64,000 bases of DNA from Bacteroidota bacterium (lineage in GTDB: Bacteria; Bacteroidota; Bacteroidia; Palsa-948), in contig JACQAL010000042.1 of the NCBI GenBank assembly GCA_016195025.1, forward strand, positions 16,925-80,924. The letters run 5' to 3'. Position numbers and translations under genes: made by a program. Each line of letters starts with the position of its first letter. Position 1 is the first letter of the stretch. The notes under the pieces were generated by a model. It made no database searches. It had not been told where the DNA came from and saw nothing but the letters and a program-made list of their open reading frames with translations. Below, in pieces: positions 7,236 through 45,694 of this stretch.

Positions 7236-7817
7236 TTATTTTAATCTGTTGTGCTGAAGTTCTTTATTATTTTTGAATTCCAAAACTTCTTTTGTCTGTC
7301 TTTTCGAAATATCCACGCGTTTGTTTTCTTCAACTCCTTCTACCAGCAAATCTTTTCCGTACACGAATTTTTCACGCAAAGAATCGGAAGGAACAATTCT
7401 GTCCGTAAGAAAAATGGCTTCCTTGGGGCAGGCATCTTCGCAGTCACCGCAAAAAATGCAGCGGAGCATATTTATTTCATAAACACTTGCATATTTTTCT
7501 TCGCGGAATAATTTTTCTTCTCCGGGTTTTCTTTCCGCGGAAGTCATCGTGATTGCTTCGGCAGGACAGGCAACTGCGCATAACCCGCAGGCAGTACATC
7601 TCTCAGCTCCGTTCTCATCGCGTTTCAAAACATGCATTCCTCTATAGACAGGAGCAAATTCTCTTTTTACTTCAGGATATTTTATCGTTGCTTTTTTTCT
7701 GAAGAAGTGTTTTATAGTAATTAGCATGCCGTTGAGAATGGCAGGGAGATATGCTCTTTCAATCAGAGTCATTTCCTTATTTGAAACCTGTTTGCTTCTA
7801 TTTGTCAGTGATTGCAT
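7236..7817 (-). CDS. nuoI: NADH-quinone oxidoreductase subunit I (2x[4Fe-4S] ferredoxin)
   Basis: Two CxxCxxCxxxCP motifs (CTACGLCAVACP, CIFCGDCEDACP). Confidence 0.95.
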   Translation of the reverse strand: MQSLTNRSKQVSNKEMTLIERAYLPAILNGMLITIKHFFRKKATIKYPEVKREFAPVYRGMHVLKRDENGAERCTACGLCAVACPAEAITMTSAERKPGEEKLFREEKYASVYEINMLRCIFCGDCEDACPKEAIFLTDRIVPSDSLREKFVYGKDLLVEGVEENKRVDISKRQTKEVLEFKNNKELQHNRLK

Positions 7818-7821
7818 TTCG

Positions 7822-8853
7822 TTAATTTATTTTTCCAGTCAGCCACATTACAATTCCTGTTATCGCGATATTCAAAATTGCCAGCGGAATCAATCCTTTC
7901 CATCCGAGATTCATCAGTTGGTCATAGCGGAAACGCGGAAGCGTCCAGCGAACCCACATAAATAAAAAGATGAAGAAAAATATTTTCGAGAAAAGAAAAA
8001 ATGTTCCGAGAAGTACGAGCGTATTTGGCTCGTGAATAAATCTTCCGATGAAAGGCATATTGAATCCGCCAAAATAAAGTGTTGCGATTATCGCGGAAGA
8101 AATAAACATGTTGATGTATTCCGCAAAAAGATAAAAACCAAGTTTCATCGAAGAATATTCGGTGTGATAACCTCCAACCAATTCGGTTTCGCATTCTGGT
8201 AAATCGAAGGGTGCGCGGTTGGTTTCCGCAAATGCACAAATGATAAAAATTAAAAATCCGAGCGGCTGGTAAATAATATTCCAATGGCCTCCGTGCTGTT
8301 GCGCTGCGATTTCGCCAATACTCAACGTTCCTGTGGTCATGACCAATGCGATGATGGCAAGACCCATTCCAAGTTCATAAGAAATCATTTGTGAGGAAGC
8401 GCGCAATGCGCCAAGCAGCGCGAACTTATTATTGGAAGCCCATCCTCCAATCATGATTCCGTAAACTCCAACAGAAGTTACTCCAAGCAAATACAAAATT
8501 CCAATGTTTACATCCGCCACCTGTAAAGAATATTCTCCTCCGCCAATATGCAGCGAACTTCCCCATGGAATCACAGTGCCTGTCATGAGGCAAGTGAGCA
8601 TGGAAAGCGAAGGACCGAGAATGAAAAGAAATTTATTTGAAACACCGGGAATGATTTCTTCCTTCATGAACATTTTTAATCCATCGGCAACGGGTTGAAG
8701 AATTCCAAAAGGTCCCGCACGATTAGGTCCCAGCCTATCCTGCAGGAATGCGGCAATTTTTCTTTCCGCGTAAGTAGAATACATCGCTATGAAAAGCGTA
8801 ATTCCAAAGACGATTAGAACCAAAATGGATTTATATATAATTAATGACATCAT
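7822..8853 (-). CDS. nuoH: NADH-quinone oxidoreductase subunit H
   Basis: NuoH/ND1-like membrane subunit. The ORF track extends to 8895, but a start at the internal Met (MMSLIIY, ~8850-8853) removes the overlap with the upstream toxin gene. Confidence 0.9.
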   Translation of the reverse strand: MMSLIIYKSILVLIVFGITLFIAMYSTYAERKIAAFLQDRLGPNRAGPFGILQPVADGLKMFMKEEIIPGVSNKFLFILGPSLSMLTCLMTGTVIPWGSSLHIGGGEYSLQVADVNIGILYLLGVTSVGVYGIMIGGWASNNKFALLGALRASSQMISYELGMGLAIIALVMTTGTLSIGEIAAQQHGGHWNIIYQPLGFLIFIICAFAETNRAPFDLPECETELVGGYHTEYSSMKLGFYLFAEYINMFISSAIIATLYFGGFNMPFIGRFIHEPNTLVLLGTFFLFSKIFFFIFLFMWVRWTLPRFRYDQLMNLGWKGLIPLAILNIAITGIVMWLTGKIN

Positions 8854-9149
8854 TATTTCAATCTGAGTTTTTTGGGATTCTGTCTTCCATCCCAAACAGA
8901 CAATATTTCTAAAACATCCGGCTTCAATTCATAAAACAATAAATAATTTCCGCAAACTGTCACTCTAACATTGTCTTCGTCAGTTGCTCTTCCTAAGTAA
9001 TTATATTTTGCTATGTATCTCACTGTTTCTCTGAATTGTTTTGATAATTTCCTGCTATAGTTTTTATTTCCATTGTGTATAAACCAATATTCAAGAATTG
9101 AACGTCTTTCATGTTTTGCTTTGACTGACCATATTATTCGCTTAGCCAT
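8853..9149 (-). CDS. type II toxin-antitoxin system RelE/ParE-family toxin
   Basis: 98 aa. Pattern typical of RelE/ParE (..ILEYW..NG..Y..KL..F.ETV..I..YP.LG...DEDNVRV...GNYLLFYEL..DVLEILSVWDGRQNP). Overlaps the upstream small gene in classic antitoxin-toxin arrangement. Embedded between nuoG and nuoH. Confidence 0.8.
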   Translation of the reverse strand: MAKRIIWSVKAKHERRSILEYWFIHNGNKNYSRKLSKQFRETVRYIAKYNYLGRATDEDNVRVTVCGNYLLFYELKPDVLEILSVWDGRQNPKKLRLK

Positions 9150-9367
9150 TTGTCTTCGTCTTTTTCCAGTTGCTCATTCGTGATGTATTCCCCGTTTTTG
9201 ATTTGTTGTTTTCCCTTTCGAATTGCTTTGCGCTGTTCGGCAGACAACCTGTAAATATTTTTGCCAGCGCTTGAGTCAAGAATTTTCTTAATTGCTTTAA
9301 GAAATTCTTCGTCATTGATTTCAGAAATCTTATCAATGACCTGATGTTTTAATTGTGCTGTTGTCAT
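9134..9367 (-). CDS. putative addiction-module antitoxin (partner of RelE/ParE)
   Basis: 77 aa acidic/basic small protein immediately upstream of and overlapping the RelE/ParE toxin by 16 nt. ATGA overlap with the preceding gene. Confidence 0.6.
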   Translation of the reverse strand: MTTAQLKHQVIDKISEINDEEFLKAIKKILDSSAGKNIYRLSAEQRKAIRKGKQQIKNGEYITNEQLEKDEDKWLSE

Positions 9368-9657
9368 TTTTTCTTTTTTAATTTTCTAACTTCTAAATTT
9401 ATTTTTGCCCACTTAAAAGTGTGTTTAATTTTTGACTTCGGATGAATCCAATGCTTGTGATCTGGAGGTGTCCAACTTGCTCCAAATCCTCCATATGATT
9501 TTCCTCCGGCATATTTTGATTTTCCATCACTATTATTTCGCCACTGAATAAGAGTTCCATCTGTATCATAATACCAATGATGTCCTTTATGTTTCGCAAT
9601 TCCCTGGCAATTTCCTTTTCTCAAAACAAAAGCATATTTCGAATTGCATTTTCTCAT
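9364..9657 (-). CDS. hypothetical small basic protein with possible HNH/colicin-DNase-like motif
   Basis: ~97 aa, rich in K/G/H/W/Y. Contains HH..YDTDG....WTPPDHKHWIH, reminiscent of the HH..YDMDN..TPKRHIDIH core of colicin E9-type DNases (inference only). Translationally coupled between nuoG and the antitoxin. Confidence 0.4.
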   Translation of the reverse strand: MRKCNSKYAFVLRKGNCQGIAKHKGHHWYYDTDGTLIQWRNNSDGKSKYAGGKSYGGFGASWTPPDHKHWIHPKSKIKHTFKWAKINLEVRKLKKKK

Positions 9658-9658
9658 T

Positions 9659-10678
9659 CTATGCATTATTCGGATTCATTGCTCCTTCTCCCAGTTCCAT
9701 TTTATTTGCTTCTAATCTTTTTTGCTGCTTCGAAACATCTGCTTTCAGATTCTGCAATGCGTTTGCAGTTTCATAATGATTGGCAGAGATTACCGAATGC
9801 CTGTCAATGTGCGAAGGCGCTTCAATTGTCCAGTCGCTGGTTTTCTTGTGGTCGTATCGGCAAGAATTACAAATCCATTCTGTTACTTCTCCGTATTTAT
9901 CTTTTCTTGCAGTCACGCGAAGCACATCTTCACCTTTATACCAAAGGCGAACTTTCCCGCAACACTTATCACAATTGCGGTGGGCGTCCACAGGTTTTGT
10001 AAACCAAACTCTTGATTTGAAACGGAAAGTTTTATCCGTGAGCGCACCCACAGGACAAACATCAATCATGTTTCCGCTCATTTCATTTTCCACCGCGCTT
10101 TGTATATAGGTAGAAATTTCCGAAACATCTCCGCGATTGATTACGCCATGAACTCTGCCCGGACATAATTGTTCCGCCACTTTCACGCAGCGATAACAGA
10201 GAATGCAGCGCGTCATGTGTAATTTTACTTTATCGCCAATGTCAATTTTTTCAAACTCTCTGCGCTTGAACTCATAGCGGGTTTTCATTTTTCCGTGCTC
10301 GTAGCCGAGATTTTGCAAATCACATTCACCCGCCTGGTCGCAAATCGGGCAGTCGAGCGGATGATTTATCAAAAGAAATTCCACCACTCCCGCGCGCGCT
10401 TCAATCACTTCGGGCGAAGTAATATTCTGCACTTCCATTCCGTCCATTACCGTTTGCCTGCAGGAGGGAACAAGTTTCGGCATCGGGCGCGGATCTTTCT
10501 CCGAACCTTTTGAAACTTTCACTAAACACGTTCTGCAATAGCCACCGCTTGTCGCAAGTTTTGTATAGTAGCACATCGCGGGCGGAACAATTTCTCCTCC
10601 TATCATGCGCGCGGCATTCAGGATCGTTGTTCCTTCCGGTACTTCAATTGTTTTTCCGTCTATGGTGACTTTTGCCAT
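9659..10678 (-). CDS. nuoG: NADH-quinone oxidoreductase subunit G, short form (2Fe-2S/4Fe-4S N-terminal module only)
   Basis: 339 aa. N-terminal 2Fe-2S ferredoxin cysteine pattern plus HPLDCPICDQAGEC and CILCYRCV clusters. No molybdopterin-like C-terminal domain. Confidence 0.9.
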   Translation of the reverse strand: MAKVTIDGKTIEVPEGTTILNAARMIGGEIVPPAMCYYTKLATSGGYCRTCLVKVSKGSEKDPRPMPKLVPSCRQTVMDGMEVQNITSPEVIEARAGVVEFLLINHPLDCPICDQAGECDLQNLGYEHGKMKTRYEFKRREFEKIDIGDKVKLHMTRCILCYRCVKVAEQLCPGRVHGVINRGDVSEISTYIQSAVENEMSGNMIDVCPVGALTDKTFRFKSRVWFTKPVDAHRNCDKCCGKVRLWYKGEDVLRVTARKDKYGEVTEWICNSCRYDHKKTSDWTIEAPSHIDRHSVISANHYETANALQNLKADVSKQQKRLEANKMELGEGAMNPNNA

Positions 10679-10800
10679 TTACTTTTTTTCTTTGGGCGTG
10701 TCCCTCGAAGACTCGGGTCGGGCTTTCTGCTTCAATCTTTTTGCGAAACGCAAAAAGGATTTCCACTTCAATCCCTCACGCAAAACTCATTTCATATATA

Positions 10801-11070
10801 TTATTTTTCCCAAAACAATAATACTCCTTCTGTGAATGAACCTCCCAAACCATACGCTGTTCTTTCGTATCTACTTGCACTTTCTGTTCCCATTGAAGCA
10901 AATCCTGTATTAATGCCTTGAACTTGTTTTAATTTCCATCCATCATCATTCATTTTTTGAATGTGGATATTAAGTCTTTCAGTTTCATTTACATGAATTC
11001 TTGGAGATAAAGAGCCATCAATTGACTTTAAATTAAGAAGACTTTCTTCCGATGTTTTAATATCCCTCAT
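10801..11070 (-). CDS. hypothetical protein (AT-rich accessory cassette, gene 2)
   Basis: 89 aa. ATGA-overlaps the upstream 158-aa ORF. Sits inside the nuo operon between nuoF and nuoG. No recognisable domain. Confidence 0.45.
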   Translation of the reverse strand: MRDIKTSEESLLNLKSIDGSLSPRIHVNETERLNIHIQKMNDDGWKLKQVQGINTGFASMGTESASRYERTAYGLGGSFTEGVLLFWEK

Positions 11071-11543
11071 CGTATCAAAAATGCTATGACCAGCCCATTC
11101 ATTTTTTTCCCACCACTGTCAAATTTTTTAAATAGTTTATTTTCTTCACTAGAAAATTCTTTTTGCTTAAATAGAAAATGTTTTTTCTTTTCTTTTAATA
11201 ATTCTAACAACATTATATTCCTTTTCTTTTTATGATAACTATTGTCATTAGGATAATGATATTCCATAGCATTTATCTTGCTCAAAATATCATACAATTT
11301 GATTTGCCACTTTATGAACCTATCAAATAACTTTTTATCTTCAACAAAAAATTCTTTTTGCCTAGATAATATATGCTGTTCCATTTCTTTTATTAATTCC
11401 TCTAATCTCAATATGGAATTTCCTTTCTCTTTCTTTACTTCATTATCTTTTTCTTTTTCTTTGATTATATTATCTAAAGTACTTAAACTGAGTATTTGTC
11501 TTTCTTCAAGTTCAAAGGAGAAAAATGTAACAGTGTTTTTCAT
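11067..11543 (-). CDS. hypothetical protein with internal repeat (AT-rich accessory cassette, gene 1)
   Basis: 158 aa, very AT-rich coding DNA compared with flanking nuo genes. Two internal repeats (..QKEFFVEDKKLFDRFIKW.. / ..QKEFSSEENKLFKKFD..). Confidence 0.45.
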   Translation of the reverse strand: MKNTVTFFSFELEERQILSLSTLDNIIKEKEKDNEVKKEKGNSILRLEELIKEMEQHILSRQKEFFVEDKKLFDRFIKWQIKLYDILSKINAMEYHYPNDNSYHKKKRNIMLLELLKEKKKHFLFKQKEFSSEENKLFKKFDSGGKKMNGLVIAFLIR

Positions 11544-11553
11544 TTCTTGTTAT

Positions 11554-12906
11554 TTAACTATTTGTGACTTCTAATTGATTCACTCTGTAATAATGTTTCA
11601 CATCTTTCACATTCTTTCCGTTTCTAACATACTCTTCAAACTCACTTCTGAAATGTCTGATTGCTGCGGCAACCGGCCATGCAGCGGCTTCGCCCAGCGG
11701 ACAAATTGTTTTGCCTTCAATTTTTCCCTGTATGTCCCAAAGCAAATCAATATCTGCTATGGTTGCGTGTCCATCTAAAAATTTATGCAAAACTTTTTCC
11801 ATCCATCCTGTTCCTTCGCGGCAAGGCGAACATTGTCCGCAGGATTCGTGATGATAGAAGCGCGTGAAGTTCCAGAGATTTTTTACTACGCTGGTGTCTT
11901 CGTCCATCACAATGAATCCGCCAGAGCCAAGCATGGTGCCAGTAATAAATCCCCCATCACTTAAACTTTCGTAAGACATTAAGCGCGGTTCGCCTTTTGC
12001 AGTTTTCAAAATTAATTCTGTGGGAAGGATTGGTACGGATGAACCTCCTGCTACAACTGCTTTCAATTTTTTCCCGTTGCGAATTCCTCCACAATATTTA
12101 TCCGAATAAATAAATTCTTCAACAGGAACTCCGAGTTCAATTTCGTAAACACCGGGTTTATTAATATGTCCGCCTGCGGAAATTAATTTTGTGCCGGTAG
12201 ATTTTCCTATTCCGATTTTCGCGTATTCATCTCCCGTCATATTTATAATCGGAACAACAGCGGCAATTGTTTCCACATTATTTACTACGGTCGGTCTGTC
12301 CCACACACCTTTCACAGCGGGAAACGGAGGTTTGATTCTTGGATTTCCTCTTTTTCCTTCGAGCGATTCAATCAATCCGGTTTCTTCTCCGCAGATATAC
12401 GCTCCCGCCCCAACATGCATGTACACATCCAGATAGTAACCGCTTCCTAAAATATTTTTTCCCAGAAGATTTGCATCGTACGCTTCCTGAATTGCTTTTT
12501 CAAGAATGTGATACACGTACATCATTTCGCCACGTATATATATGTAGGAAACATTTGCGCCAAGCGCGAACGAAGAAATAATCATCCCCTCTACGAGAAT
12601 GTGCGGCTTCATCTCCATTAAAAATCTATCCTTGAAAGTGCCAGGCTCCGATTCATCGGCATTGCAAACCAAATGGCGGGGAACTCCGGGAGGTTTTGCG
12701 ATGAAACTCCATTTCATTCCCGTTGGAAATCCCGCTCCGCCTCTTCCGCGTAAGCCGGATTTTTTTACTTCCTCCACAATTTCTTCGGGCTTCATCTTCA
12801 GCGCTTTTTCCAAAGTCGCATAGCCGCCATTTGCTTTATAGCCGGAGAGAGATTGAATTCCGGGTTTGTCTAAATCGTTTATGAGTAACTGAGCCACAGA
12901 TTTCAC
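11554..12906 (-). CDS. nuoF: NADH-quinone oxidoreductase subunit F (51 kDa, FMN/NADH-binding)
   Basis: 450 aa. GxGxxG-rich NADH/FMN region (GRGGAGFPTG) and C-terminal 4Fe-4S cysteine motif (ESCGQCSPCREG). Apparent GTG start. Confidence 0.95.
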   Translation of the reverse strand: MKSVAQLLINDLDKPGIQSLSGYKANGGYATLEKALKMKPEEIVEEVKKSGLRGRGGAGFPTGMKWSFIAKPPGVPRHLVCNADESEPGTFKDRFLMEMKPHILVEGMIISSFALGANVSYIYIRGEMMYVYHILEKAIQEAYDANLLGKNILGSGYYLDVYMHVGAGAYICGEETGLIESLEGKRGNPRIKPPFPAVKGVWDRPTVVNNVETIAAVVPIINMTGDEYAKIGIGKSTGTKLISAGGHINKPGVYEIELGVPVEEFIYSDKYCGGIRNGKKLKAVVAGGSSVPILPTELILKTAKGEPRLMSYESLSDGGFITGTMLGSGGFIVMDEDTSVVKNLWNFTRFYHHESCGQCSPCREGTGWMEKVLHKFLDGHATIADIDLLWDIQGKIEGKTICPLGEAAAWPVAAAIRHFRSEFEEYVRNGKNVKDVKHYYRVNQLEVTNS

Positions 12907-12919
12907 AGATTTACACTGA

Positions 12920-13336
12920 TTATAAAATAACTCGTTTGAACTTCAAAGAATTTTCTCCGAAGTTTATTAGTAATCCAAGTTTCAATTTAGAAACTGCAAG
13001 ATAGTTTATGACTTGACGATAATGGTCTTCAAGCACTCCTTCCTGCGCTTTAACTTCTAAAATAATTTTTTCGTCAATTACGAAATCGGCAAAATAATAA
13101 TGAGGTAAAATTGTTCCTTTATATTCTACTTCATACTTCCTTTCTCTTTCGAAGGAGATATTTTTATTTCTCAATTCAAATTCAATCGCGTCCTTATAGA
13201 CAATCTCGGATAATCCCCTCCCCAATACTTTATGAACTTCCATGCACAAGCCAATGATCTCAAAAGAATCTTCTTGCATGGGATATTTATCCTTTGCGTA
13301 GTAAATTTCCTGTGCGTCCTGTAATATCAATTCCAT
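12920..13336 (-). CDS. GxxExxY family protein (PD-(D/E)XK-like)
   Basis: 138 aa with the diagnostic G-L-S-E-I-V-Y (GxxExxY) motif. Inserted between nuoE and nuoF. Confidence 0.8.
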   Translation of the reverse strand: MELILQDAQEIYYAKDKYPMQEDSFEIIGLCMEVHKVLGRGLSEIVYKDAIEFELRNKNISFERERKYEVEYKGTILPHYYFADFVIDEKIILEVKAQEGVLEDHYRQVINYLAVSKLKLGLLINFGENSLKFKRVIL

Positions 13337-13371
13337 TGGCTGTTAATCTGTGTTCTCTGTGTAATCAGTGG

Positions 13372-13926
13372 CTATTGTTTTATCTCCGAATGATTTTTAA
13401 TTCTTTCTTTTCTATAGTGAGAAATCTGTTCGCCTTTGTTTTTATAATCGTCCAGAATCTTTTCGCACTTTTCAAAACTTAAATTTTCGTGATACGTTTC
13501 GCCAATCTGCATCATCGGTGCTGTTCCGCAGGAAGCCAGGCATTCAACAGTCTTCAGCGTGAACATTCCGTCAGCAGTTGTTTGCCCTTCTTTTATATTT
13601 AATTTTTTCTCGATGTGCTTTACTAAATCTTCTGCGCCCATCAGCCAGCAGGGACCGGTTCTGCAAACCTCAATCACGCATTTGCCAACAGGTTTTAAAT
13701 TGAACATGGAATAAAATGAAGCTACTTCGTAAACTTCTATCGGTTGAATTTTCAGAATCGAAGCCACATAATCCATCACCGGTGCGCTGAGCCAGCCGTC
13801 AAATTCCGCCTGCGCGAGATGGAGAATCGGAAGTATCGCGGACTTCTGTTTGCCTTCGGGATAGCGCCTCATCAACTTGTTGCAGAGTGCAAGCGCTTCG
13901 TCAGAGAATCTTATTTGTTTTGCCAC
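13372..13926 (-). CDS. nuoE: NADH-quinone oxidoreductase subunit E (24 kDa, 2Fe-2S)
   Basis: 184 aa. Thioredoxin-like 2Fe-2S cysteines (CRTGPC ... CLASCGTAP). First gene of the nuo cluster in this window. Confidence 0.93.
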   Translation of the reverse strand: MAKQIRFSDEALALCNKLMRRYPEGKQKSAILPILHLAQAEFDGWLSAPVMDYVASILKIQPIEVYEVASFYSMFNLKPVGKCVIEVCRTGPCWLMGAEDLVKHIEKKLNIKEGQTTADGMFTLKTVECLASCGTAPMMQIGETYHENLSFEKCEKILDDYKNKGEQISHYRKERIKNHSEIKQ

Positions 13927-14061
13927 AAATTTTTTCGTTCGATTGGAGACAAATTTAGATATTTCTTCACGCCCGAAACAAGATTTTTTTCACCCTAAAA
14001 ACTTTTTCTTCCGCCTATACTTCTATCTTTGCCTCCCTTAATTCTAATATACATATTTTAC

Positions 14062-14253
14062 ATGGAAGAAAACAATAACGAAGCGAAAAAAACTGCGCAG
14101 AAAGTCGGAGGACTTCTCTTTGTCGGATGCATGTTTCTCGGAATGGCAGCTGGCTGGTATTTTCATAACCTGAATATCGGTTTGTTTGGCGGAATGGGAC
14201 TTGGATTTATCATGATGGCAGTGGTGTGGATGTCTGCCGCAAATAAAAAATAA
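14062..14253 (+). CDS. small hydrophobic membrane protein (hypothetical)
   Basis: ~63 aa with one or two predicted TM helices, starting at MEENNNEAKK. Abuts the RidA gene. Confidence 0.4.
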   Translation: MEENNNEAKKTAQKVGGLLFVGCMFLGMAAGWYFHNLNIGLFGGMGLGFIMMAVVWMSAANKK

Positions 14254-14726: not shown

Positions 14727-15227
14727 ATGGAACTAACAATAATTCAAAAGAAGATATTTGAAGTACGAGGGCATCGTGTTATGCTTGACCGCCATTTAGG
14801 TGAATTGTATGATGTTCCTACTAAATCCATAAATCTTGCTGTAAAAAGGAATAAGAATAGATTCCCTTCGGATTTCATGTTTCAACTCACCAAAAAAGAA
14901 TATGATTCTTTAAGGTTTCAATTTGAAACCTTAAAGAGAGGAACACATTCTAAATTTTTACCGTATGTTTTTACCGAGCACGGTGTGGCAATGTTGTCAT
15001 CAGTTTTGAGAAGCAAGAAAGCAGTTGAAGTAAATATTTCAATTATGCGTGCCTTTATTCTGCTCAGGCAATTAGCCATCAGCCATAAAGAACTTTTGAG
15101 AAAGATTAAGGAGTTAGAAAAGAAATATGATAAAAACTTTGCAGAGATTTATCAAGCGTTAAACTTATTACTTGACCCGCCACATCCTAAAAGAAAAAAG
15201 GTTGGCTATAAACATTACGATGAATAA
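14727..15227 (+). CDS. ORF6N (KilA-N-like) domain protein
   Basis: 166 aa. N-terminal ..IRGQRVMLD..LA.LY.V.TK.LN.AVKRN..RFP.DFMF.L.. pattern typical of ORF6N. Stop overlaps the ileS start. Confidence 0.8.
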   Translation: MELTIIQKKIFEVRGHRVMLDRHLGELYDVPTKSINLAVKRNKNRFPSDFMFQLTKKEYDSLRFQFETLKRGTHSKFLPYVFTEHGVAMLSSVLRSKKAVEVNISIMRAFILLRQLAISHKELLRKIKELEKKYDKNFAEIYQALNLLLDPPHPKRKKVGYKHYDE

Positions 15228-18566: not shown

Positions 18567-19460
18567 ATGGCAAAAGCAAAAAAGAAAAAGCCGGCAAAGG
18601 CGAAGGCAAAAAAAGCCAAAGCAAAAAAATCTTCTAAGAAAAAAGCAGCGAAGAAAAAAATATCTAAGAAGGTTGCGAAGAAAAAAGCAGCGAAGAAAAA
18701 AGCAACAAAAAAAGTTAAGAAGGTTAAAGCAAGAAAAGTTGCAAAGAAAAAAGCATCTAAGAAAATTAAGGCGAGAAAAGTTAAAGCGAAGAAATCCGCA
18801 AAGAAAGTTTCCGCAAAAACAAAACCGGTTGCCAAGAAGGAGAGCAAAATTTCTGATACGATTATTGACATCAAGCCAATTTCTTTTCCAAAGCCGATTG
18901 CAAGCGAAAAACCGGAGAAAGAAAAAAAGAAAACCAAAGAAGAATTGGAGGAGGAACGCGAACTTATGGGAGATGAAAACTATTCATGGGAGAATAGCAA
19001 TTTTGGCGATATGAAATCGTATGAGCCCGCGCCTGTCTTCAGAAAACCTGAACCTCCCCAGCCGAAATTCAAAGGAAAAAAAGACAGCCGCACGCGGTAT
19101 TCAGATAAAGAACTTGCAGAGTTCAAGGGAATCATTCACGAAAAAATTACAGAGGCAGAACGCGATTATGAACTTTTGAAAAATACCCTCGCGCACCGCG
19201 ATGAGCAGGGAACGGATGATACTTCTCCTACGTTTAAAGTTCTGGAAGACGGTTCAGACGCAATGTCGCGCGAGGAAATTGCGCAACTTGCTTCCCGCCA
19301 GGAAAAACATATTCAGAATTTAAGAAATGCTCTCATACGAATTGAAAATAAAACGTACGGAATCTGCCGCGTGACAGGAAAATTAATTCCGAAAGAAAGA
19401 TTGCGCAGCGTTCCGCACGCAACGCTCAGCATTGAAGCCAAGTTAATGCAGAATAGTTAG
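18567..19460 (+). CDS. TraR/DksA-family regulator with long K/A-rich histone-H1-like N-terminal extension
   Basis: C-terminal ~120 aa match the DksA/TraR fold (..ELL..L..R....GTYGICRVTGKLIPKERL...P.A..). N-terminal ~100 aa are KKAAKK-type low-complexity repeats. Conserved ileS-dksA-lspA neighbourhood. Confidence 0.7.
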   Translation: MAKAKKKKPAKAKAKKAKAKKSSKKKAAKKKISKKVAKKKAAKKKATKKVKKVKARKVAKKKASKKIKARKVKAKKSAKKVSAKTKPVAKKESKISDTIIDIKPISFPKPIASEKPEKEKKKTKEELEEERELMGDENYSWENSNFGDMKSYEPAPVFRKPEPPQPKFKGKKDSRTRYSDKELAEFKGIIHEKITEAERDYELLKNTLAHRDEQGTDDTSPTFKVLEDGSDAMSREEIAQLASRQEKHIQNLRNALIRIENKTYGICRVTGKLIPKERLRSVPHATLSIEAKLMQNS

Positions 19461-38697: not shown

Positions 38698-39120
38698 ATG
38701 CAGGTTATTTATAAGGGCAAACTAAAAGATACAACAAGAGAAATGAATGCTATTTTTCAAGAGCAGAAGTATGCTTTCCACACGCAGAAAGACATTTTCC
38801 ACGAGCAGAAAGATGCTTTCCACACGCAGAAAGATGCTTTCCACGAGCAGAAAGACACTTTCCACACGCAGAAAGACGCTTTTCACGAGCAGAAAGATGC
38901 TTTCCACATGCTGTTGGATGCTTTCCACGAGCAGAAAGTATCTTTCCACACGCAGAAAGACGCTTTCCACGAGCAGAAAGTATCCTTCCACACGCAGAAA
39001 GACATTTTCCACGAGCAGAAAGATGCTTTCCACATGCTGGTGGATGCTTTCCACGAGCAGAAAGATACCATCAGCATTCGGATGAATTCCCTGATAAGAA
39101 TGATTCTTCAAAAACAATAG
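38698..39120 (+). CDS. tandem-heptad (HEQKDAF/HTQKDAF)x15 repeat protein, hypothetical
   Basis: 140-aa ORF with a non-repetitive N-terminal (MQVIYKGKLKDTTREMNAIFQ) and C-terminal tail (ISIRMNSLIRMILQKQ). Preceded by a canonical promoter. All other frames are also open across the repeat. Confidence 0.4.
   Translation: MQVIYKGKLKDTTREMNAIFQEQKYAFHTQKDIFHEQKDAFHTQKDAFHEQKDTFHTQKDAFHEQKDAFHMLLDAFHEQKVSFHTQKDAFHEQKVSFHTQKDIFHEQKDAFHMLVDAFHEQKDTISIRMNSLIRMILQKQ
38758..39072. repeat. 15 x 21-bp tandem repeat (alternating CACGAGCAGAAAGATGCTTTC / CACACGCAGAAAGACGCTTTC)
   Basis: Directly visible. 42-bp higher-order periodicity. Each unit contains the small palindrome GAAAGAnGCTTTC. Confidence 0.95.
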
Positions 39121-43021: not shown

Positions 43022-45196
43022 ATGAAAAACTTTTTTTTCTTTCCGATAGTTGCCGGCACTTCAATTCTGTTTTTGGCTTCGTGCACATCAACCATCAACC
43101 ATCCACCATCAACCATCGCGCATCTTCCCTATCCGCAAACAAAAAAAACGGATACGGTGAATGATTACTTCGGAACAAAAATTGCCGACCCGTACCGTTG
43201 GCTGGAGGATGATAATTCCGATGAAACAAAAAAATGGGTGGAAGAAGAAAACAAAGTCACGTTTGATTACCTGGGAAAAATTCCTTTCCGCCAGCAGATG
43301 AAAGAACGTTTGACACAAGTTTGGAATTATGAAAAGATGACCGCTCCGTTCAGGCGCGGCAACTATTATTTCTTCTATAAGAATGACGGCTTGCAGAATC
43401 AAAGCGTGCTCTATGTGCAGGAAGGATTGACTGGCGCTCCGAAAATTTTAATTGACCCCAACACGCTTTCTGCCGATGGAACACTTGCGCTGAATGGCGT
43501 GAGCATTCGCGAAGACGGAAAATATATTTCGTACAATCTTTCGCAATCGGGTTCCGACTGGAATGATGTGGTTACGATGGAAATTCAAACGCAAAAAGTT
43601 TTACCCGACACGCTTCACTGGGTGAAATTTTCCGGTGCATCGTGGAAGGGCGATGGATTTTATTACAGCACCTATCCCGCGCCCACTTCACATGCGTACT
43701 CAAACAAAAACGAAAACAACAAAGCATTCTTTCATAAACTCGGAACAAAGCAAAGTGAAGACAAAATTATTTATGCCGATGAATCTCATGCCGGCAGGGG
43801 CTGGTCGGTTTCTGCAACCGATGACGGAAAATACATGGGGCTGTGGGGAAGCGAATCTACCAGCGGAAATTCTTTTGCCGTGAAAGAATCTCAGAGCGAG
43901 AAATGGAATTGGGCGGACACTGCCTATAAAAATGAATACAGAATGATTGATGACATAGGCAAAATGCTGCTGGTTCATACTAACGCAAACGCTCCGAAAT
44001 ATCAACTGGTGCTCGTTGACCCGAACAAACCCGACAGCGCGCACTGGAAAAAAATTATTCCCCAGACAAATGATTTGCTCGAAAGCGTTTCGCTTGCAAA
44101 CGGAAAAATTGTCTGCACCTATCTTCACGATGTAATCACCAAGTTGGAAATATTTTCTCTGGACGGAAAAATGGAAAAAGAAATTTCCACTCCTCCGCTG
44201 GGCGTTGCAGGTTTCAGTTCAGATAAAAAGGACTCTGTTGCGTTTTATTCTTTCACCAATTATATAACTCCTTCGCTGATTTACAAGTTCAACATGAATA
44301 ACAATTCTTCGGAAGTTTTCTTCCAGCCGAAAGTGGATTTTGCTTCTGACGAGTACGAGAGCAAGCAGGTTTTTTATCCGAGCAAGGACGGAACAAAAAT
44401 TCCCATGCTCATCACGCACAAGAAAGGAATTGCGCTCGATGGAAATAATCCCTGCTTCCTCTATGGCTATGGCGGATTCAACATCAGCATCACTCCGTAT
44501 TTTGTTACCAACTCGGTTGCGTTTTTGGAAAATGGCGGTGTGTATGCGGTGGCGAATATGCGCGGTGGCGGTGAGTACGGAGAAGAATGGCATAAGGCGG
44601 GAATTAAATGCAACAAGCAAAATGTGTTTGATGATTTTATTTCCGCTGCGGAATATCTGATTAAAGAAAAATATACTTCTTCGCAGAAATTGGCTGTGCA
44701 CGGACGTTCGAATGGCGGACTTCTCATTGGCGCGGTGATGACGCAGCGCCCGGATTTAATGAAAGTGGCATTGCCCGGAGTGGGCGTGCTCGATATGCTT
44801 CGCTATCATAAATTCACCATCGGATATTACTGGGCGAGCGATTATGGAAGAAGCGATAACAAAGAAGAGTTCAATTGCCTGGTAAAATATTCTCCGCTTC
44901 ACAATGTGAAAGAAACGGAATATCCTGCCACCATGGTTCTGACTGGCGACCACGATGACCGCGTGGTGCCTGCGCATTCATTCAAGTTTGCGGCAACACT
45001 CCAGGAAAAAAATAAAAGCAATAACCCGATTCTCATCCGCGTGGATACGAAAGCAGGGCACGGTGCAGGAAAACCCACTGCAAAACAAATTGAAGAATGG
45101 GCGGATGTGTGGAGTTTTGTTTTTTATAATCTGGGAATGGAAATGAAGAGCACAACGCCTGTGCTGAAAGGAGAAGCAAATGCAAAAAAGGAATAA
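43022..45196 (+). CDS. prolyl oligopeptidase (S9A family) lipoprotein
   Basis: N-terminal beta-propeller plus C-terminal alpha/beta hydrolase with GRSNGGLL nucleophile elbow and a catalytic D/H region. Lipobox LASC. The N-terminus contains an in-frame (ATCAACC)n repeat encoding STINHPPSTIA. Confidence 0.9.
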   Translation: MKNFFFFPIVAGTSILFLASCTSTINHPPSTIAHLPYPQTKKTDTVNDYFGTKIADPYRWLEDDNSDETKKWVEEENKVTFDYLGKIPFRQQMKERLTQVWNYEKMTAPFRRGNYYFFYKNDGLQNQSVLYVQEGLTGAPKILIDPNTLSADGTLALNGVSIREDGKYISYNLSQSGSDWNDVVTMEIQTQKVLPDTLHWVKFSGASWKGDGFYYSTYPAPTSHAYSNKNENNKAFFHKLGTKQSEDKIIYADESHAGRGWSVSATDDGKYMGLWGSESTSGNSFAVKESQSEKWNWADTAYKNEYRMIDDIGKMLLVHTNANAPKYQLVLVDPNKPDSAHWKKIIPQTNDLLESVSLANGKIVCTYLHDVITKLEIFSLDGKMEKEISTPPLGVAGFSSDKKDSVAFYSFTNYITPSLIYKFNMNNNSSEVFFQPKVDFASDEYESKQVFYPSKDGTKIPMLITHKKGIALDGNNPCFLYGYGGFNISITPYFVTNSVAFLENGGVYAVANMRGGGEYGEEWHKAGIKCNKQNVFDDFISAAEYLIKEKYTSSQKLAVHGRSNGGLLIGAVMTQRPDLMKVALPGVGVLDMLRYHKFTIGYYWASDYGRSDNKEEFNCLVKYSPLHNVKETEYPATMVLTGDHDDRVVPAHSFKFAATLQEKNKSNNPILIRVDTKAGHGAGKPTAKQIEEWADVWSFVFYNLGMEMKSTTPVLKGEANAKKE

Positions 45197-45222
45197 TGGA
45201 ATAATGGAATGATGGAAGATTG
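45190..45222. repeat. GGAATG-array inverted repeat (left arm) flanking four-helix-bundle gene
   Basis: GGAATAATGGAATAATGGAATGATGG. The reverse complement matches 45655-45688 (CCATCATTCCA....CCATTCCATTATTCC). Similar arrays occur at 30856-30933 and 51269-51332. Confidence 0.8.
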
Positions 45223-45237
45223 AAATACAAATGCAAA

Positions 45238-45654
45238 ATGGCAATTGAAAGGAAAAACATAAACCGCGGATATAAAAAGTTGGAAGTATGGCAAGATGCG
45301 ATTGAACTTTACCTTCTTGCTTGTAAAACATTCTGTAAACTGCCGAATCATTTGATGAAAGTTACTTCTAATTCTATTGATGCTTCGCACAGCATTTCAA
45401 GAAATATAAGTGAAGGGTATTGCCGAAGAGGGCTGACAGAATATCTGAATTTTTTAAATTATTCTCTCGGCTCATGCGGAGAGTTTCATTCTTGTTATTA
45501 CTCATGCTATAAAGCGAAACAGATTTCCGAAAATGAATTTGAAGAATTGGATGCGCTTCATTATAAGGTAGAAAATAAATTAATCAAATTAATAGAATCC
45601 TTGCAACGAAAAAAGAAAAACGGAGAATGGGAAGATAGTTTTGTTGGCAATTAA
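45238..45654 (+). CDS. four-helix-bundle protein (TIGR02436-like, 23S rRNA intervening-sequence protein family)
   Basis: ..GYKKLEVWQ.A.EL.......LP..E...L..QI.RA..SI..NI.EG family pattern. ~139 aa. Confidence 0.75.
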   Translation: MAIERKNINRGYKKLEVWQDAIELYLLACKTFCKLPNHLMKVTSNSIDASHSISRNISEGYCRRGLTEYLNFLNYSLGSCGEFHSCYYSCYKAKQISENEFEELDALHYKVENKLIKLIESLQRKKKNGEWEDSFVGN

Positions 45655-45688
45655 CCATCATTCCAATTTTCCACCATTCCATTATTCC
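45655..45688. repeat. GGAATG-array inverted repeat (right arm)
   Basis: Imperfect reverse complement of 45190-45222. Confidence 0.8.
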
Positions 45689-45694
45689 GATTTC

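What the first reader, a model, noticed from the sequence alone, without database searches (positions are those of the whole stretch)
8853..13336. Complex I operon threaded by three independent accessory gene cassettes
Between nuoE and nuoN there are seven extra small genes, all co-oriented with the operon and tightly coupled by ATGA/ATG overlaps. (i) A GxxExxY (PD-(D/E)XK-like) gene sits between nuoE and nuoF. (ii) A very AT-rich two-gene cassette (158 aa internally repeated + 89 aa, no recognisable domains) sits between nuoF and nuoG. (iii) Between nuoG and nuoH there is a 100-aa basic protein plus an antitoxin plus a RelE/ParE toxin. A core respiratory operon is normally highly compact, so selfish or accessory cassettes embedded in it would be co-transcribed with, and could be polar on, complex I. 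The RelE/ParE mRNA interferase toxin would be expressed at respiratory-operon levels. This is the most system-like anomaly in the window.
Basis: partly seen in the sequence, partly recalled or inferred. Interest (0 to 1): 0.7.

Follow-up and report, generated by a model that had tools for sequence, protein, structure and literature searches.

The report
Hitchhiker cassettes inside a complex-I operon
Seven small foreign genes (a nuclease element, two orphan genes, and a trio that includes a toxin-antitoxin pair) and one repeat RNA motif sit between the genes of a bacterial respiratory complex I operon; relatives of this bacterium carry different insertions at the same gene junctions, so this is recurrent colonisation by selfish or accessory DNA and not a new respiratory function.

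Summary
On the minus strand, nuoE-nuoH (13926-7822) carries seven extra co-oriented ORFs in three junctions. In 80 related Bacteroidia nuo loci the ancestral junctions are tight (median gaps -1 to 50 nt). 33 of the 80 loci carry different inserts of at least 300 bp at these junctions, most often at nuoF-nuoG, and nearly all are co-oriented with the operon. None of the 80 shares the window's cassettes; two have a divergent homologue at the same junction. (i) The GxxExxY nuclease gene is bracketed by inverted arrays of CACNGATT units. This architecture is shared by 72% of 71 metagenomic GxxExxY genes, against 0.8% of control ORFs. The arms carry the nuoE stop codon and the nuoF start codon. (ii) p158 and p89 are AT-rich ORFans that are real ORFs but have no homologues. 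(iii) p100, the antitoxin and the ParE-family toxin recur in one relative that is 87% identical in DNA, with dN/dS of 0.12, 0.02 and 0.13. p100 belongs to an undescribed family of small proteins with conserved Cys and His residues. The only Bacteroidetes-type promoter motif lies upstream of nuoE, which fits read-through expression, but expression was not tested. Verdict: a mosaic of known kinds of hitchhiker, in an unusual and recurrent context.

The parts
13950..13981 (-). Candidate Bacteroidetes-type promoter of the nuoE-N unit (TTG, 21 nt, TAAATTTG), with its -7 box starting 31 nt upstream of the nuoE start
   Evidence: It is the only TTG-N(17-22)-TAnnTTTG match on the operon strand in 7800-14100. 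This is a motif match only.
13372..13926 (-). nuoE, first gene of the unit. nuoA-D are not adjacent in this genome.
   Evidence: PF01257 at 4.9e-56. nuoA-D are adjacent to nuoE in L020 but not in the window, L006 or L042.
13340..13372 (-). 5' arm of the GxxExxY element: GCCACTGATTACACAGAGAACACAGATTAAC. It starts inside the nuoE stop codon (TAGCCAC).
   Evidence: Sequence, inverted repeat I6, motif hits, and closure of a long-range stem in both the MFE and centroid folds.
12920..13336 (-). GxxExxY PD-(D/E)XK nuclease gene (138 aa). The motifs GLSEIVY, D84 and E94-V-K96 are intact.
   Evidence: PF13366 at 5.8e-35 and TIGR04256 at 2.7e-38. The motif residues are invariant columns in alignment A3.
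12893..12922 (-). 3' arm: TAATCAGTGTAAATCTGTGAAATCTGTGGC. It overlaps the GxxExxY stop codon and contains the nuoF GTG start (12906 or 12897).
11554..12906 (-). nuoF
   Evidence: PF01512 and PF10589. It is 71-92% identical to the NuoF of 80 related loci.
11067..11543 (-). p158: AT-rich (GC 0.25) ORFan with an internal repeat of about 35 aa
   Evidence: Only self hits among 5.8 billion proteins. No family or PDB hit. ORF length is not due to chance. Repeat D1.
10801..11070 (-). p89: ORFan whose start overlaps the p158 stop (ATGA)
   Evidence: Only a self hit. Not related to the YVFEKE lipoproteins of L040, L048 and L066. AF2 single-sequence model had pLDDT 46, too low to use.
10712..10786 (-). 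Flavo-1 RNA motif (RF01705), full length, in the p89-nuoG spacer
   Evidence: 57.9 bits against a gathering score of 42, E 4.6e-11. It is the only Rfam hit in the 64-kb window.
9659..10678 (-). nuoG (short 339-aa form)
   Evidence: PF22117, PF10588 and PF13510.
9364..9666 (-). p100: basic small protein of an undescribed family with conserved Cys and His residues. Its start overlaps the nuoG stop by 8 nt.
   Evidence: dN/dS 0.12 against L081. 81 representative homologues. C20, G22 (of CQG), H26, W31, Y33, G37 and P76 are invariant; C7, Q21, H30 and P67-P68 (of PPDH) are nearly invariant. AF2 pLDDT 85 with no PDB or viral fold match.
9134..9367 (-). Putative antitoxin (77 aa)
   Evidence: Overlaps p100 (ATGA) and ParE (16 nt). 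dN/dS 0.02. 24% identical to the protein in the same position upstream of ParE in L010.
8853..9149 (-). ParE/RelE-family toxin (98 aa)
   Evidence: PF05016 at 2.2e-9. dN/dS 0.13. 38% identical to the L010 ParE at the same junction.
7822..8853 (-). nuoH. Its ATG shares one base with the ParE stop (TAATG).
   Evidence: PF00146 at 1.7e-120; sequence.

Best explanation
The nuoE-N transcription unit of this uncultured Bacteroidia bacterium (a MAG with locus tags HY063_...) has been colonised at three successive gene junctions by unrelated, co-oriented hitchhiker cassettes that appear to lack promoters and were acquired separately.

(i) E-F junction. This is a GxxExxY PD-(D/E)XK nuclease gene bracketed by inverted arrays of CACNGATT units. 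The architecture is typical of the family and resembles REP or MITE elements. The arms replaced the native nuoE-stop/nuoF-start overlap and now carry the nuoE stop (TAG-CCAC) and the nuoF start (GTG-GC).

(ii) F-G junction. This holds an AT-rich pair of ORFan genes of unknown, probably phage or mobile, origin, followed by a copy of the dispersed Flavo-1 repeat.

(iii) G-H junction. This holds a three-gene string: a small Cys/His protein of a family seen in phage-like gene arrays, an antitoxin, and a ParE-family toxin.

Inferred, not shown: all of these are expressed by read-through from the nuoE promoter. Translation is passed along the operon by start/stop overlaps in cassettes ii and iii. 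In cassette i, the long-range stem may bring the nuoE stop next to the nuoF start. The cassettes persist because insertion at a junction is nearly neutral for complex I, and in the case of the toxin-antitoxin pair because its loss is penalised. They have no role in respiration.
For: - Tight junctions are ancestral. Median gaps are E-F -1, F-G 50, G-H 13 and H-I 25 nt, and L020 has gaps of 5 nt or less across E-F to I-J.
- 33 of 80 related loci have at least one junction of 300 bp or more. By junction: F-G 19 of 70, E-F 8 of 74, G-H 6 of 66. The contents are heterogeneous: 23S_rRNA_IVP four-helix-bundle genes, GxxExxY, ParE pairs, MNT/HepT pairs, ORF6N, OMP-like genes and others. All principal ORFs are co-oriented except one.
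- The distribution on the NuoF tree is patchy. Near-identical sister loci differ (L004 empty, L005 with GxxExxY; L021 and L022 empty, L025 filled).
- The GxxExxY tree is incongruent with the NuoF tree. The window's protein is closest to those of L040 and L048 (62-63%), whose NuoF is only 79-80% identical to the window's.
- The window's ParE is 38% identical to the L010 ParE, although NuoG and NuoH are about 80% identical.
- All seven extra genes have foreign composition.
- Cassette iii is reproduced in an independent assembly and is under purifying selection. Cassette ii is reproduced on two Logan contigs.
- The inverted arms are a family hallmark. For the nuo-locus set, the Smith-Waterman (SW) score of the upstream flank against the reverse complement of the downstream flank averages 33.6 against 14.5 for controls (sd 2.6), p = 2e-11. 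For 71 metagenomic GxxExxY genes the mean is 30.0 against 15.0, with 72% above 22 against 0.8% of controls, p = 5e-19.
- The variable dinucleotide of the repeat unit matches between the two arms in 21 of 34 elements, against 11.3 expected, p = 2e-4.
- ORF-less copies of the same arms occur in the F-G junction of L003 and L005 and are absent from L002 and L004.
- 33 of 38 metagenomic GxxExxY genes have both neighbours co-oriented.
- The arms close the predicted transcript fold, z = -4.3.
- The only promoter motif on the operon strand is upstream of nuoE, and sigma-70-like and terminator-like hits are at chance level.
Against: - There are no expression data, so co-transcription and translational coupling are inferences from geometry.
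- Cassette iii is under purifying selection, so it does something. A benefit to the host is not excluded.
- No target-site duplication, integrase or transposase explains how cassettes ii and iii arrived, and their junctions are seamless.
- The arm mismatches show no excess of sense-strand G-U wobble (47 against 48). This gives no specific support for an RNA-level role of the stem over a DNA-level, TIR-like role.
- In this 64-kb window the CACNGATT arms occur only at this one element, so dispersal within this genome is unproven.
- The source is a MAG.
Confidence: 0.72

Rival explanations
1. Defence-island reading. The E-F, F-G and G-H junctions of nuo act as a hotspot where anti-phage or abortive-infection genes accumulate (a PD-(D/E)XK nuclease, ParE and MNT/HepT toxin-antitoxin pairs, small phage-derived proteins). 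The highly expressed operon guarantees their constitutive expression.
For: The inserts in the window and in relatives are enriched for toxin-antitoxin pairs and nucleases (ParE in the window and L010; MNT/HepT in L040, L042 and L066; GxxExxY in 5 loci). Content turns over rapidly at fixed sites, as in defence hotspots. p100 has a homologue in a 595-kb phage.
Against: PADLOC gave no significant hit for any of the six window proteins scanned; the best was E 0.015, 11 bits. Many inserts in relatives are not defence-like (OMP-like, TonB_C-like, cytochrome c, methyltransferase, ClpP, lipoproteins). The cassettes hold one to three genes, not islands.
Confidence: 0.13
2. Domesticated regulatory coupling. 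The ParE module (with p100 as a third, regulatory component, as in PaaR2-PaaA2-ParE2) has been retained because placing it in the nuo transcript ties growth arrest or persistence to the expression of respiratory complex I.
For: All three genes are conserved in order and under purifying selection between two lineages with dS of 0.36-0.89. Unbroken start/stop overlaps run from nuoG to nuoH. No promoter motif of its own was found. A homologous toxin-antitoxin pair sits at the same junction in L010.
Against: Absent from most relatives. L010 lacks p100. p100 homologues occur without a neighbouring ParE, and in L086 within an array of small ORFs that have no Pfam match. p100 has no HTH domain or known DNA-binding fold. 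Purifying selection is also expected for a selfish toxin-antitoxin pair.
Confidence: 0.08
3. Lineage-specific accessory subunits or assembly factors of complex I.
For: The genes sit inside the operon, are co-oriented, and have tight overlaps. Cassette iii is under purifying selection.
Against: The distribution is patchy to unique. p158 and p89 are ORFans. The families (nuclease, ParE toxin) have no link to respiration. Relatives have tight junctions or unrelated inserts. Composition is foreign.
Confidence: 0.04
4. For cassette i only: the arms act at the RNA level, like a 23S rRNA intervening sequence. RNase III cuts the long-range stem, which releases the GxxExxY mRNA and splits nuoE from nuoF. 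They would then not be DNA-level terminal repeats used for mobility.
For: The same bracket architecture surrounds the PF05635 (23S_rRNA_IVP) genes in the junctions of relatives and at window 45238-45654. IVS elements that carry such ORFs are excised by RNase III (PMC4990558). The stem closes both the MFE and centroid folds. The arm sequences of the IVP elements differ between loci but remain complementary within each element.
Against: There is no sense-strand wobble bias. The GxxExxY arms share a conserved unit, CACNNATT, across unrelated metagenomes, which looks more like a recognition site than a plain stem. Arm orientation relative to the ORF is sometimes flipped, and ORF-less copies exist. 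Cleavage inside the stem would endanger the nuoF start codon.
Confidence: 0.3
5. Assembly or binning artefact: the inserts are chimeric joins in a metagenome-assembled genome.
For: The source is a MAG (names). The inserts differ in GC from the flanking genes.
Against: Independent Logan assemblies reproduce nuoF-3'/p158/p89 (L082, L083) and nuoG-3'/p100/antitoxin/ParE/nuoH (L081, from another sample, 87% identical). The reading frames are seamless. Analogous inserts occur in 33 of 80 other assemblies.
Confidence: 0.02

Closest known systems
Type II toxin-antitoxin modules of the ParE/RelE superfamily (ParDE, RelBE)
   Same: A 98-aa toxin that matches PF05016 above the cut-off, preceded by a small overlapping gene in the antitoxin position. 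Both are under purifying selection.
   Different: No promoter or operator of its own was detected. The antitoxin matches no known antitoxin or DNA-binding family. The module is embedded seamlessly between nuoG and nuoH. The toxin's target (gyrase or mRNA) is unresolved.
Three-component PaaR2-PaaA2-ParE2 systems (from my own knowledge)
   Same: The gene order: an extra small gene, then a short antitoxin with no recognisable DNA-binding domain, then ParE.
   Different: p100 is not an HTH regulator and has an orphan predicted fold. The homologous L010 pair lacks it. p100 relatives occur without ParE.
23S rRNA intervening sequences carrying an S23p / PF05635 ORF (PMC4990558)
   Same: A small ORF enclosed by complementary flanks that form a long stem in the transcript. 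PF05635 genes with exactly this architecture occupy the same nuo junctions in relatives and lie at window 45238-45654.
   Different: The host is an mRNA operon junction, not 23S rRNA. The window's cassette encodes a PD-(D/E)XK nuclease instead of a four-helix bundle. RNase III processing is untested.
REP/REPIN elements and their RAYT transposases (from my own knowledge)
   Same: A nuclease gene flanked by inverted short repeats. ORF-less inverted doublets of the same repeat occur in intergenic sites of related genomes (L003, L005). No target-site duplication is seen.
   Different: The enzyme is a PD-(D/E)XK nuclease, not an HUH/Y1 transposase. The arms are arrays of 8-9-nt units and not one palindrome. 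Genome-wide dispersal in this organism has not been shown.
Flavo-1 RNA motif (RF01705; PMC2864571, PMC9723704)
   Same: A full-length match above the gathering score, in a Bacteroidota intergenic spacer.
   Different: Nothing differs. It is an ordinary member. Its function is unknown, and the literature reports hits in sense and antisense orientation, which is how a dispersed repeat behaves.

Membership tests
ParE/RelE toxin (PF05016) | Profile match above the curated cut-off | tested here: met
   38.2 bits against a cut-off of 23, E 2.2e-9, covering 89 of 89 profile positions.
ParE/RelE toxin (PF05016) | A small cognate antitoxin gene immediately upstream, translationally coupled | tested here: met
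   A 77-aa ORF overlaps the toxin start by 16 nt. It has dN/dS 0.02 and a homologue in the same position in L010.
ParE/RelE toxin (PF05016) | Toxicity that the antitoxin neutralises, and the toxin's target (gyrase or ribosome-bound mRNA) | not testable with these tools
   No close solved homologue was found by sequence.
Type II toxin-antitoxin operon | An autoregulated promoter of its own upstream of the antitoxin | tested here: inconclusive
   No Bacteroidetes-type or above-chance sigma-70-like promoter motif lies in or before the cassette. Motif scans cannot prove absence.
GxxExxY / PDDEXK_3 (TIGR04256, PF13366) | Profile match above the cut-off | tested here: met
   130.9 bits against 35, and 120.6 bits against 22.
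GxxExxY / PDDEXK_3 (TIGR04256, PF13366) | Intact PD-(D/E)XK catalytic residues (the E of GxxExxY, D, and ExK) | tested here: met
   G41-x-x-E44-x-x-Y47, D84 and E94-V-K96 are invariant in alignment A3.
REPIN-RAYT-like mobile unit | Gene flanked by inverted copies of a short repeat | tested here: met
   The window element scores 26, above the controls' 99th percentile of 22. 72% of 71 metagenomic family members exceed 22.
REPIN-RAYT-like mobile unit | An HUH/Y1 (IS200-like) transposase | tested here: not met
   The encoded protein is a PD-(D/E)XK nuclease.
REPIN-RAYT-like mobile unit | Many dispersed ORF-less repeat doublets in the same genome | tested here: inconclusive
   ORF-less copies exist in L003 and L005. 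In the 64-kb window the motif occurs only at the GxxExxY element. The whole genome was not available.
rRNA-type intervening sequence (IVS) | Inserted in a 23S rRNA helix | tested here: not met
   It lies between nuoE and nuoF.
rRNA-type intervening sequence (IVS) | Complementary flanks that form a stem enclosing the ORF | tested here: met
   The MFE and centroid folds are closed by the arms, z = -4.3.
rRNA-type intervening sequence (IVS) | Excision by RNase III | not testable with these tools
   No transcript-end data are available.
Flavo-1 RNA (RF01705) | Covariance-model score above the gathering threshold | tested here: met
   57.9 bits against 42, model positions 1-76 of 76.
Complex I accessory subunit | Conserved presence at this position across related complex I operons | tested here: not met
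   None of the 80 related loci carries the window's cassettes. p158, p89, p100 and the antitoxin have no tblastn hit in any of them, and the GxxExxY and ParE hits are divergent (55-63% and 38%) and patchy. Cassette iii recurs only in L081.
PaaR2-type tripartite ParE system | An HTH transcriptional regulator as the third component | tested here: not met

The most novel reading that the evidence does not exclude
GxxExxY nuclease genes, and in parallel the PF05635 '23S rRNA IVS protein' genes, together with their inverted arrays of short repeat units, may form an undescribed class of mobile cassette that targets operon junctions. It would resemble REPIN-RAYT but use a PD-(D/E)XK nuclease. These cassettes would land precisely between translationally coupled genes, bring their own stop and start codons in the terminal repeats (TAG-CCAC ... 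GTG-GC), and form a bridging stem that places the upstream stop next to the downstream start. The host operon would keep working, and the insertion would be almost invisible to selection.
Probability: 0.3. Interest if true: 0.7.

Novelty: new member of a known kind. Interest (0 to 1): 0.48.

Why it matters
A core respiratory operon is not off limits to selfish DNA. In this Bacteroidia lineage, 41% of the sampled nuo operons carry junction inserts, and the N-module junctions E-F, F-G and G-H are the preferred sites. This has three consequences. First, annotation pipelines and operon-based function prediction should not read such genes as complex I components. Second, the locus is a natural test bed for how promoter-less genes survive inside an essential transcript, through start/stop overlaps or a bridging stem. 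Third, the bracket architecture gives a concrete, testable handle on two very large protein families with no known function, GxxExxY/PDDEXK_3 and 23S_rRNA_IVP. The full-text searches found almost nothing on them.

Tried and rejected
- p89 as a relative of the 'MKKQLL...YVFEKE' lipoproteins found in the F-G junction of L040, L048 and L066: hhalign probability 0.1%, rejected.
- p89 structure from a single sequence: pLDDT 46, unusable.
- PHROGs and PADLOC for all the orphan genes: nothing significant.
- PDB sequence searches for ParE, GxxExxY and p158: nothing.
- The RNAduplex energy of the flanks was a poor discriminator (controls averaged -31 kcal/mol). I replaced it with a local-alignment score.
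- A G-U wobble strand-asymmetry test, meant to separate an RNA-level from a DNA-level role of the arms, showed no bias (47 against 48).
- Sigma-70 promoter and intrinsic-terminator scans were at chance level, and no full Bacteroidetes promoter pattern lies in the region.
- No target-site duplications were seen on comparing filled and empty junctions (L004 with L005; L002 and L004 with L003 and L005).
- p100 genomic contexts were mostly contigs too short to be informative.
- Literature searches for GxxExxY, PDDEXK_3, IVS protein and STRR heptamers found no description of the bracket architecture.

Full report
OBSERVATION

The operon lies on the minus strand. ORF listing and profile searches give this order: nuoE (13372-13926), a GxxExxY/PDDEXK_3 gene (12920-13336; PF13366 5.8e-35, TIGR04256 2.7e-38), nuoF (11554-12906), p158 (11067-11543), p89 (10801-11070), a short nuoG (9659-10678), p100 (9364-9666), a 77-aa ORF (9134-9367), a ParE_toxin protein (8853-9149; PF05016 2.2e-9, 38 bits against a cut-off of 23), then nuoH through nuoN.

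All seven extra genes are co-oriented with the operon. GC falls to 0.23-0.26 across p158 and to about 0.32-0.35 across the other inserts, against 0.41-0.47 in the nuo genes. GC3 is 0.19-0.37 in the extra genes against 0.36-0.46 in the nuo genes. p158 has an internal 75-nt repeat. Its 158-codon open frame was never reached in 2000 dinucleotide shuffles.

Overlaps link nuoG/p100 (8 nt), p100/antitoxin (ATGA), antitoxin/ParE (16 nt), ParE/nuoH (TAATG) and p158/p89 (ATGA). The GxxExxY gene, however, has a 35-nt spacer on one side and a 13-22-nt spacer on the other. A 122-nt spacer precedes nuoG. That spacer contains a full-length Flavo-1 RNA motif (RF01705, 10712-10786, 57.9 bits against 42), which is the only Rfam hit in the window.

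ARE THEY INSERTIONS?

I fetched 80 nuoF loci from species-representative genomes. Their NuoF is 71-92% identical to the window's, and nearly all are uncultured Bacteroidia. Mapping the window's proteins onto them and measuring junction lengths shows that tight junctions are the rule. Median gaps are E-F -1, F-G 50, G-H 13, H-I 25, I-J 25, J-K 12 and K-L 13 nt. L020, a close relative, has gaps of 5 nt or less from E-F to I-J.

Nevertheless, 33 of the 80 loci have at least one junction of 300 bp or more. These concentrate at F-G (19 of 70), E-F (8 of 74) and G-H (6 of 66). Their contents are heterogeneous:
- PF05635 '23S rRNA IVS' four-helix-bundle genes (9 loci)
- GxxExxY genes (4 loci, all at E-F)
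- an antitoxin plus ParE pair (L010, at G-H)
- MNT/HepT pairs (L040, L042, L066)
- ORF6N, small lipoproteins, OMP-like and TonB_C-like genes
- a methyltransferase, a cytochrome c and ClpP

All principal ORFs but one (L058) are co-oriented with nuo.

On a NuoF tree the pattern is patchy, and even near-identical sisters differ (L004 empty against L005 with GxxExxY; L021 and L022 against L025). p158, p89, p100 and the antitoxin have no tblastn hit in any of the 80 loci. The split of nuoA-D from nuoE-N is shared with L006 and L042 but not with L020.

CASSETTE (i)

The GxxExxY gene keeps the catalytic signature (GLSEIVY, D84, E94-V-K96). It is bracketed by 5'-GCCACTGATTACACAGAGAACACAGATTAAC and TAATCAGTGTAAATCTGTGAAATCTGTGGC-3'. 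This is not peculiar to the window.

Every GxxExxY and PF05635 gene in the nuo loci has short tandem units upstream and their reverse complement downstream. A Smith-Waterman (SW) local-alignment score of the 100 nt upstream against the reverse complement of the 100 nt downstream gives a mean of 33.6 for these 15 elements. The 1049 control ORFs give 14.5 (sd 2.6), Mann-Whitney p = 2e-11. The single control outlier turned out to be another PF05635 gene, at window 45238-45654.

In 71 independent metagenomic GxxExxY genes the mean is 30.0 against 15.0. 72% exceed the controls' 99th percentile, against 0.8% of controls (p = 5e-19). Their arms share the unit CAC-NN-ATT. The variable dinucleotide agrees between the two arms in 21 of 34 elements, against 11.3 expected (p = 2e-4).

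ORF-less versions with the same arms sit in the F-G junction of L003 and L005 and are missing from L002 and L004.

Comparison with empty sites shows that the native junction (nuoE ...TAA-ATG GGA AAR... nuoF) has been replaced. The nuoE stop is now TAG-CCAC at the start of the 5' arm. The nuoF start is the GTG of the terminal GTGGC. This holds in the window, L005 and L010; in L040 and L048 the arm ends 9-12 nt before the native ATG.

The GxxExxY proteins fall into two groups that cut across the NuoF tree: the window with L040 and L048, and L005 with L010 and a copy at another site in L006. This implies several independent arrivals at the same junction. 33 of 38 metagenomic GxxExxY genes have both neighbours co-oriented.

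The 496-nt nuoE-stop to nuoF-start RNA is predicted to fold so that the two arms close the whole structure, in both the MFE and the centroid (z = -4.3). A G-U wobble asymmetry test gave no strand bias (47 against 48). I therefore cannot say whether the arms matter as RNA (IVS-like processing, or a bridge between the stop and the start) or as DNA (terminal repeats for mobility).

CASSETTE (ii)

p158 and p89 are true ORFans. In 5.8 billion clustered proteins each finds only itself (NCBI MAG proteins HY063_08725 and HY063_08720). Two short Logan contigs reproduce nuoF-3'/p158/p89 exactly. No Pfam, NCBIfam, PHROG, PADLOC or PDB match exists. A suspected link of p89 to the YVFEKE lipoproteins was rejected, and the single-sequence model was unusable.

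The ORFs are statistically real and are the most AT-rich stretch of the region. The adjacent Flavo-1 copy belongs to a computationally defined Bacteroidota motif that is reported in both sense and antisense orientation relative to transcripts and has no known function (PMC2864571, PMC9723704). It behaves like a dispersed repeat.

My commitment is that this is a recently acquired gene pair of mobile or phage origin, carried along by read-through transcription. This is an inference.

CASSETTE (iii)

A 2-kb contig from another sample (L081) carries nuoG-3'/p100/antitoxin/ParE/nuoH in the same order at 87% DNA identity. Nei-Gojobori estimates of dN/dS are 0.12 for p100 (dS 0.36), 0.02 for the antitoxin (dS 0.75), 0.13 for ParE (dS 0.51) and 0.045 for nuoH (dS 0.89). 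All three genes therefore encode functional proteins.

The L010 pair at the same junction is homologous but distant: 24% identity for the antitoxin and 38% for ParE, while NuoG and NuoH are about 80% identical. This points to separate acquisitions of members of the same toxin-antitoxin family.

An exhaustive HMMER search places p100 in an undescribed family. It has 81 representatives at E of 0.001 or better, most of them 80-160 aa, plus weak repeat-like matches to very large proteins. C20, G22 (of CQG), H26, W31, Y33, G37 and P76 are invariant; C7, Q21, H30 and P67-P68 (of PPDH) are nearly invariant. A family-based AlphaFold model is confident (pLDDT 85) but has no neighbour in PDB or BFVD. 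One homologue lies in a 595-kb uncultured phage, and one lies in an array of small ORFs without Pfam matches (L086). None of the contexts I could see contains ParE.

I therefore treat p100 as a separate hitchhiker that travels with the toxin-antitoxin pair, and not as a proven third component of it.

EXPRESSION CONTEXT

On the operon strand between 7800 and 14100, the only Bacteroidetes-type promoter pattern (TTG, 21 nt, TAAATTTG) lies 31 nt upstream of nuoE. No full pattern occurs elsewhere in the region, and sigma-70-like and terminator-like hits are at the shuffle expectation. This fits read-through expression but does not prove it.

MECHANISM AND RIVALS

Best explanation (confidence 0.72): independent, nearly neutral colonisation of operon junctions by promoter-less hitchhikers. 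The cassettes are kept because they do not break the chain of transcription and translation, and because loss of the toxin-antitoxin pair is penalised.

Rivals:
- A defence-gene hotspot (0.13). Toxin-antitoxin pairs and nucleases are enriched, but PADLOC was negative and many inserts are unrelated to defence.
- Domesticated coupling of ParE to respiration (0.08).
- Accessory subunits of complex I (0.04).
- An assembly artefact (0.02). Independent assemblies argue against it.

For the arms alone, an RNA-level IVS-like role (about 0.3) and a DNA-level repeat role both remain open.

COMPARISON WITH KNOWN SYSTEMS AND NOVELTY

Each piece belongs to, or resembles, a known kind:
- the ParE/RelE toxin-antitoxin family (membership met on profile match and gene order; activity untested)
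- GxxExxY/PDDEXK_3 (membership met)
- Flavo-1 (membership met)
- IVS elements and REPIN-RAYT (resemblance only; defining features were not met)

What is unusual is the context and its recurrence. Also unusual is the bracket architecture of the GxxExxY and IVP genes, for which the full-text searches found no description.

I rate the finding as a new member of known kinds, with moderate interest. The more novel reading, an undescribed class of mobile cassette that targets operon junctions, is given separately.

LIMITS

There are no expression or biochemical data. The source is a MAG. Neighbour orientation in the metagenomic loci was called crudely from the longest open frames. The mode of insertion of cassettes ii and iii is unknown.

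Noticed in passing
window 10712-10786 (-): A full-length Flavo-1 RNA motif (RF01705, 57.9 bits) in the p89-nuoG spacer.
   Followed up: partly
window 45179-45695 (+): A second bracketed element. A PF05635 23S_rRNA_IVP gene (45238-45654, E 2.7e-18) sits between a prolyl oligopeptidase gene and a Wzy_C gene. It is flanked by GGAATAATGGAATAATGGAATGATGG upstream and CCATCATTCCAATTTTCCACCATTCCATTATTCC downstream (inverted-flank score 43).
   Followed up: partly
L003 8330-8445; L005 6336-6450: ORF-less 132-nt hairpin elements in the nuoF-nuoG junction (GCCACAGATTACACAGATTAACACAGAC ... AATCAGTGAAAATCTGTGTAATCTGTGGC). Their arm motif is the same as that around the window's GxxExxY gene. They are absent from the sister loci L002 and L004.
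   Followed up: partly
window 14727-15227 (+): An ORF6N-domain gene (PF10543, 1e-33) lies immediately upstream of ileS and overlaps its listed start. A gene of the same family occupies the nuoF-nuoG junction of Pedobacter fastidiosus (L079).
   Followed up: no
window 13926-14030; compare L020 3776-6991: The complex I operon is split. nuoA-D are not upstream of nuoE in the window, L006 or L042, but they are contiguous with nuoE in L020.
   Followed up: partly
window 38754-39066: A tandem array of a 21-nt unit (14.5 copies; also read as a 42-nt unit, 7.5 copies, 84% matches), with open frames on both strands.
   Followed up: no
window 9364-9666 (-) and proteins P0004-P0084: p100 defines a family of small proteins found in many metagenomes, with conserved Cys, His and PPDH positions. 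It has no Pfam model. A confident predicted fold has no PDB neighbour. There are weak repeat-like matches to proteins of 1000-2900 aa.
   Followed up: partly
L011, L025, L030, L046, L055 (nuoF-nuoG junction): A homologous gene of about 170-300 aa with a weak OMP beta-barrel-like match occupies the F-G junction in several separate sub-lineages. It may be an older, partly fixed insert.
   Followed up: no
L033, L037, L015, L018, L042 (E-F or F-G spacers): Spacers of 60-100 nt made of short repeat units without an ORF. In L033 and L037 these are inverted heptamer arrays (for example CTTTGCG ... CGCAAAG); L015, L018 and L042 show tandem units (for example CAGTAGACA). They may be relics or miniature forms of the bracketed elements.
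   Followed up: no
window 18567-19460 (+): A 297-aa protein with a very lysine/alanine-rich, histone-H1-like N-terminal half (tandem repeats at 18609-18794). Its C-terminal part looks DksA/TraR-like by eye.
   Followed up: no
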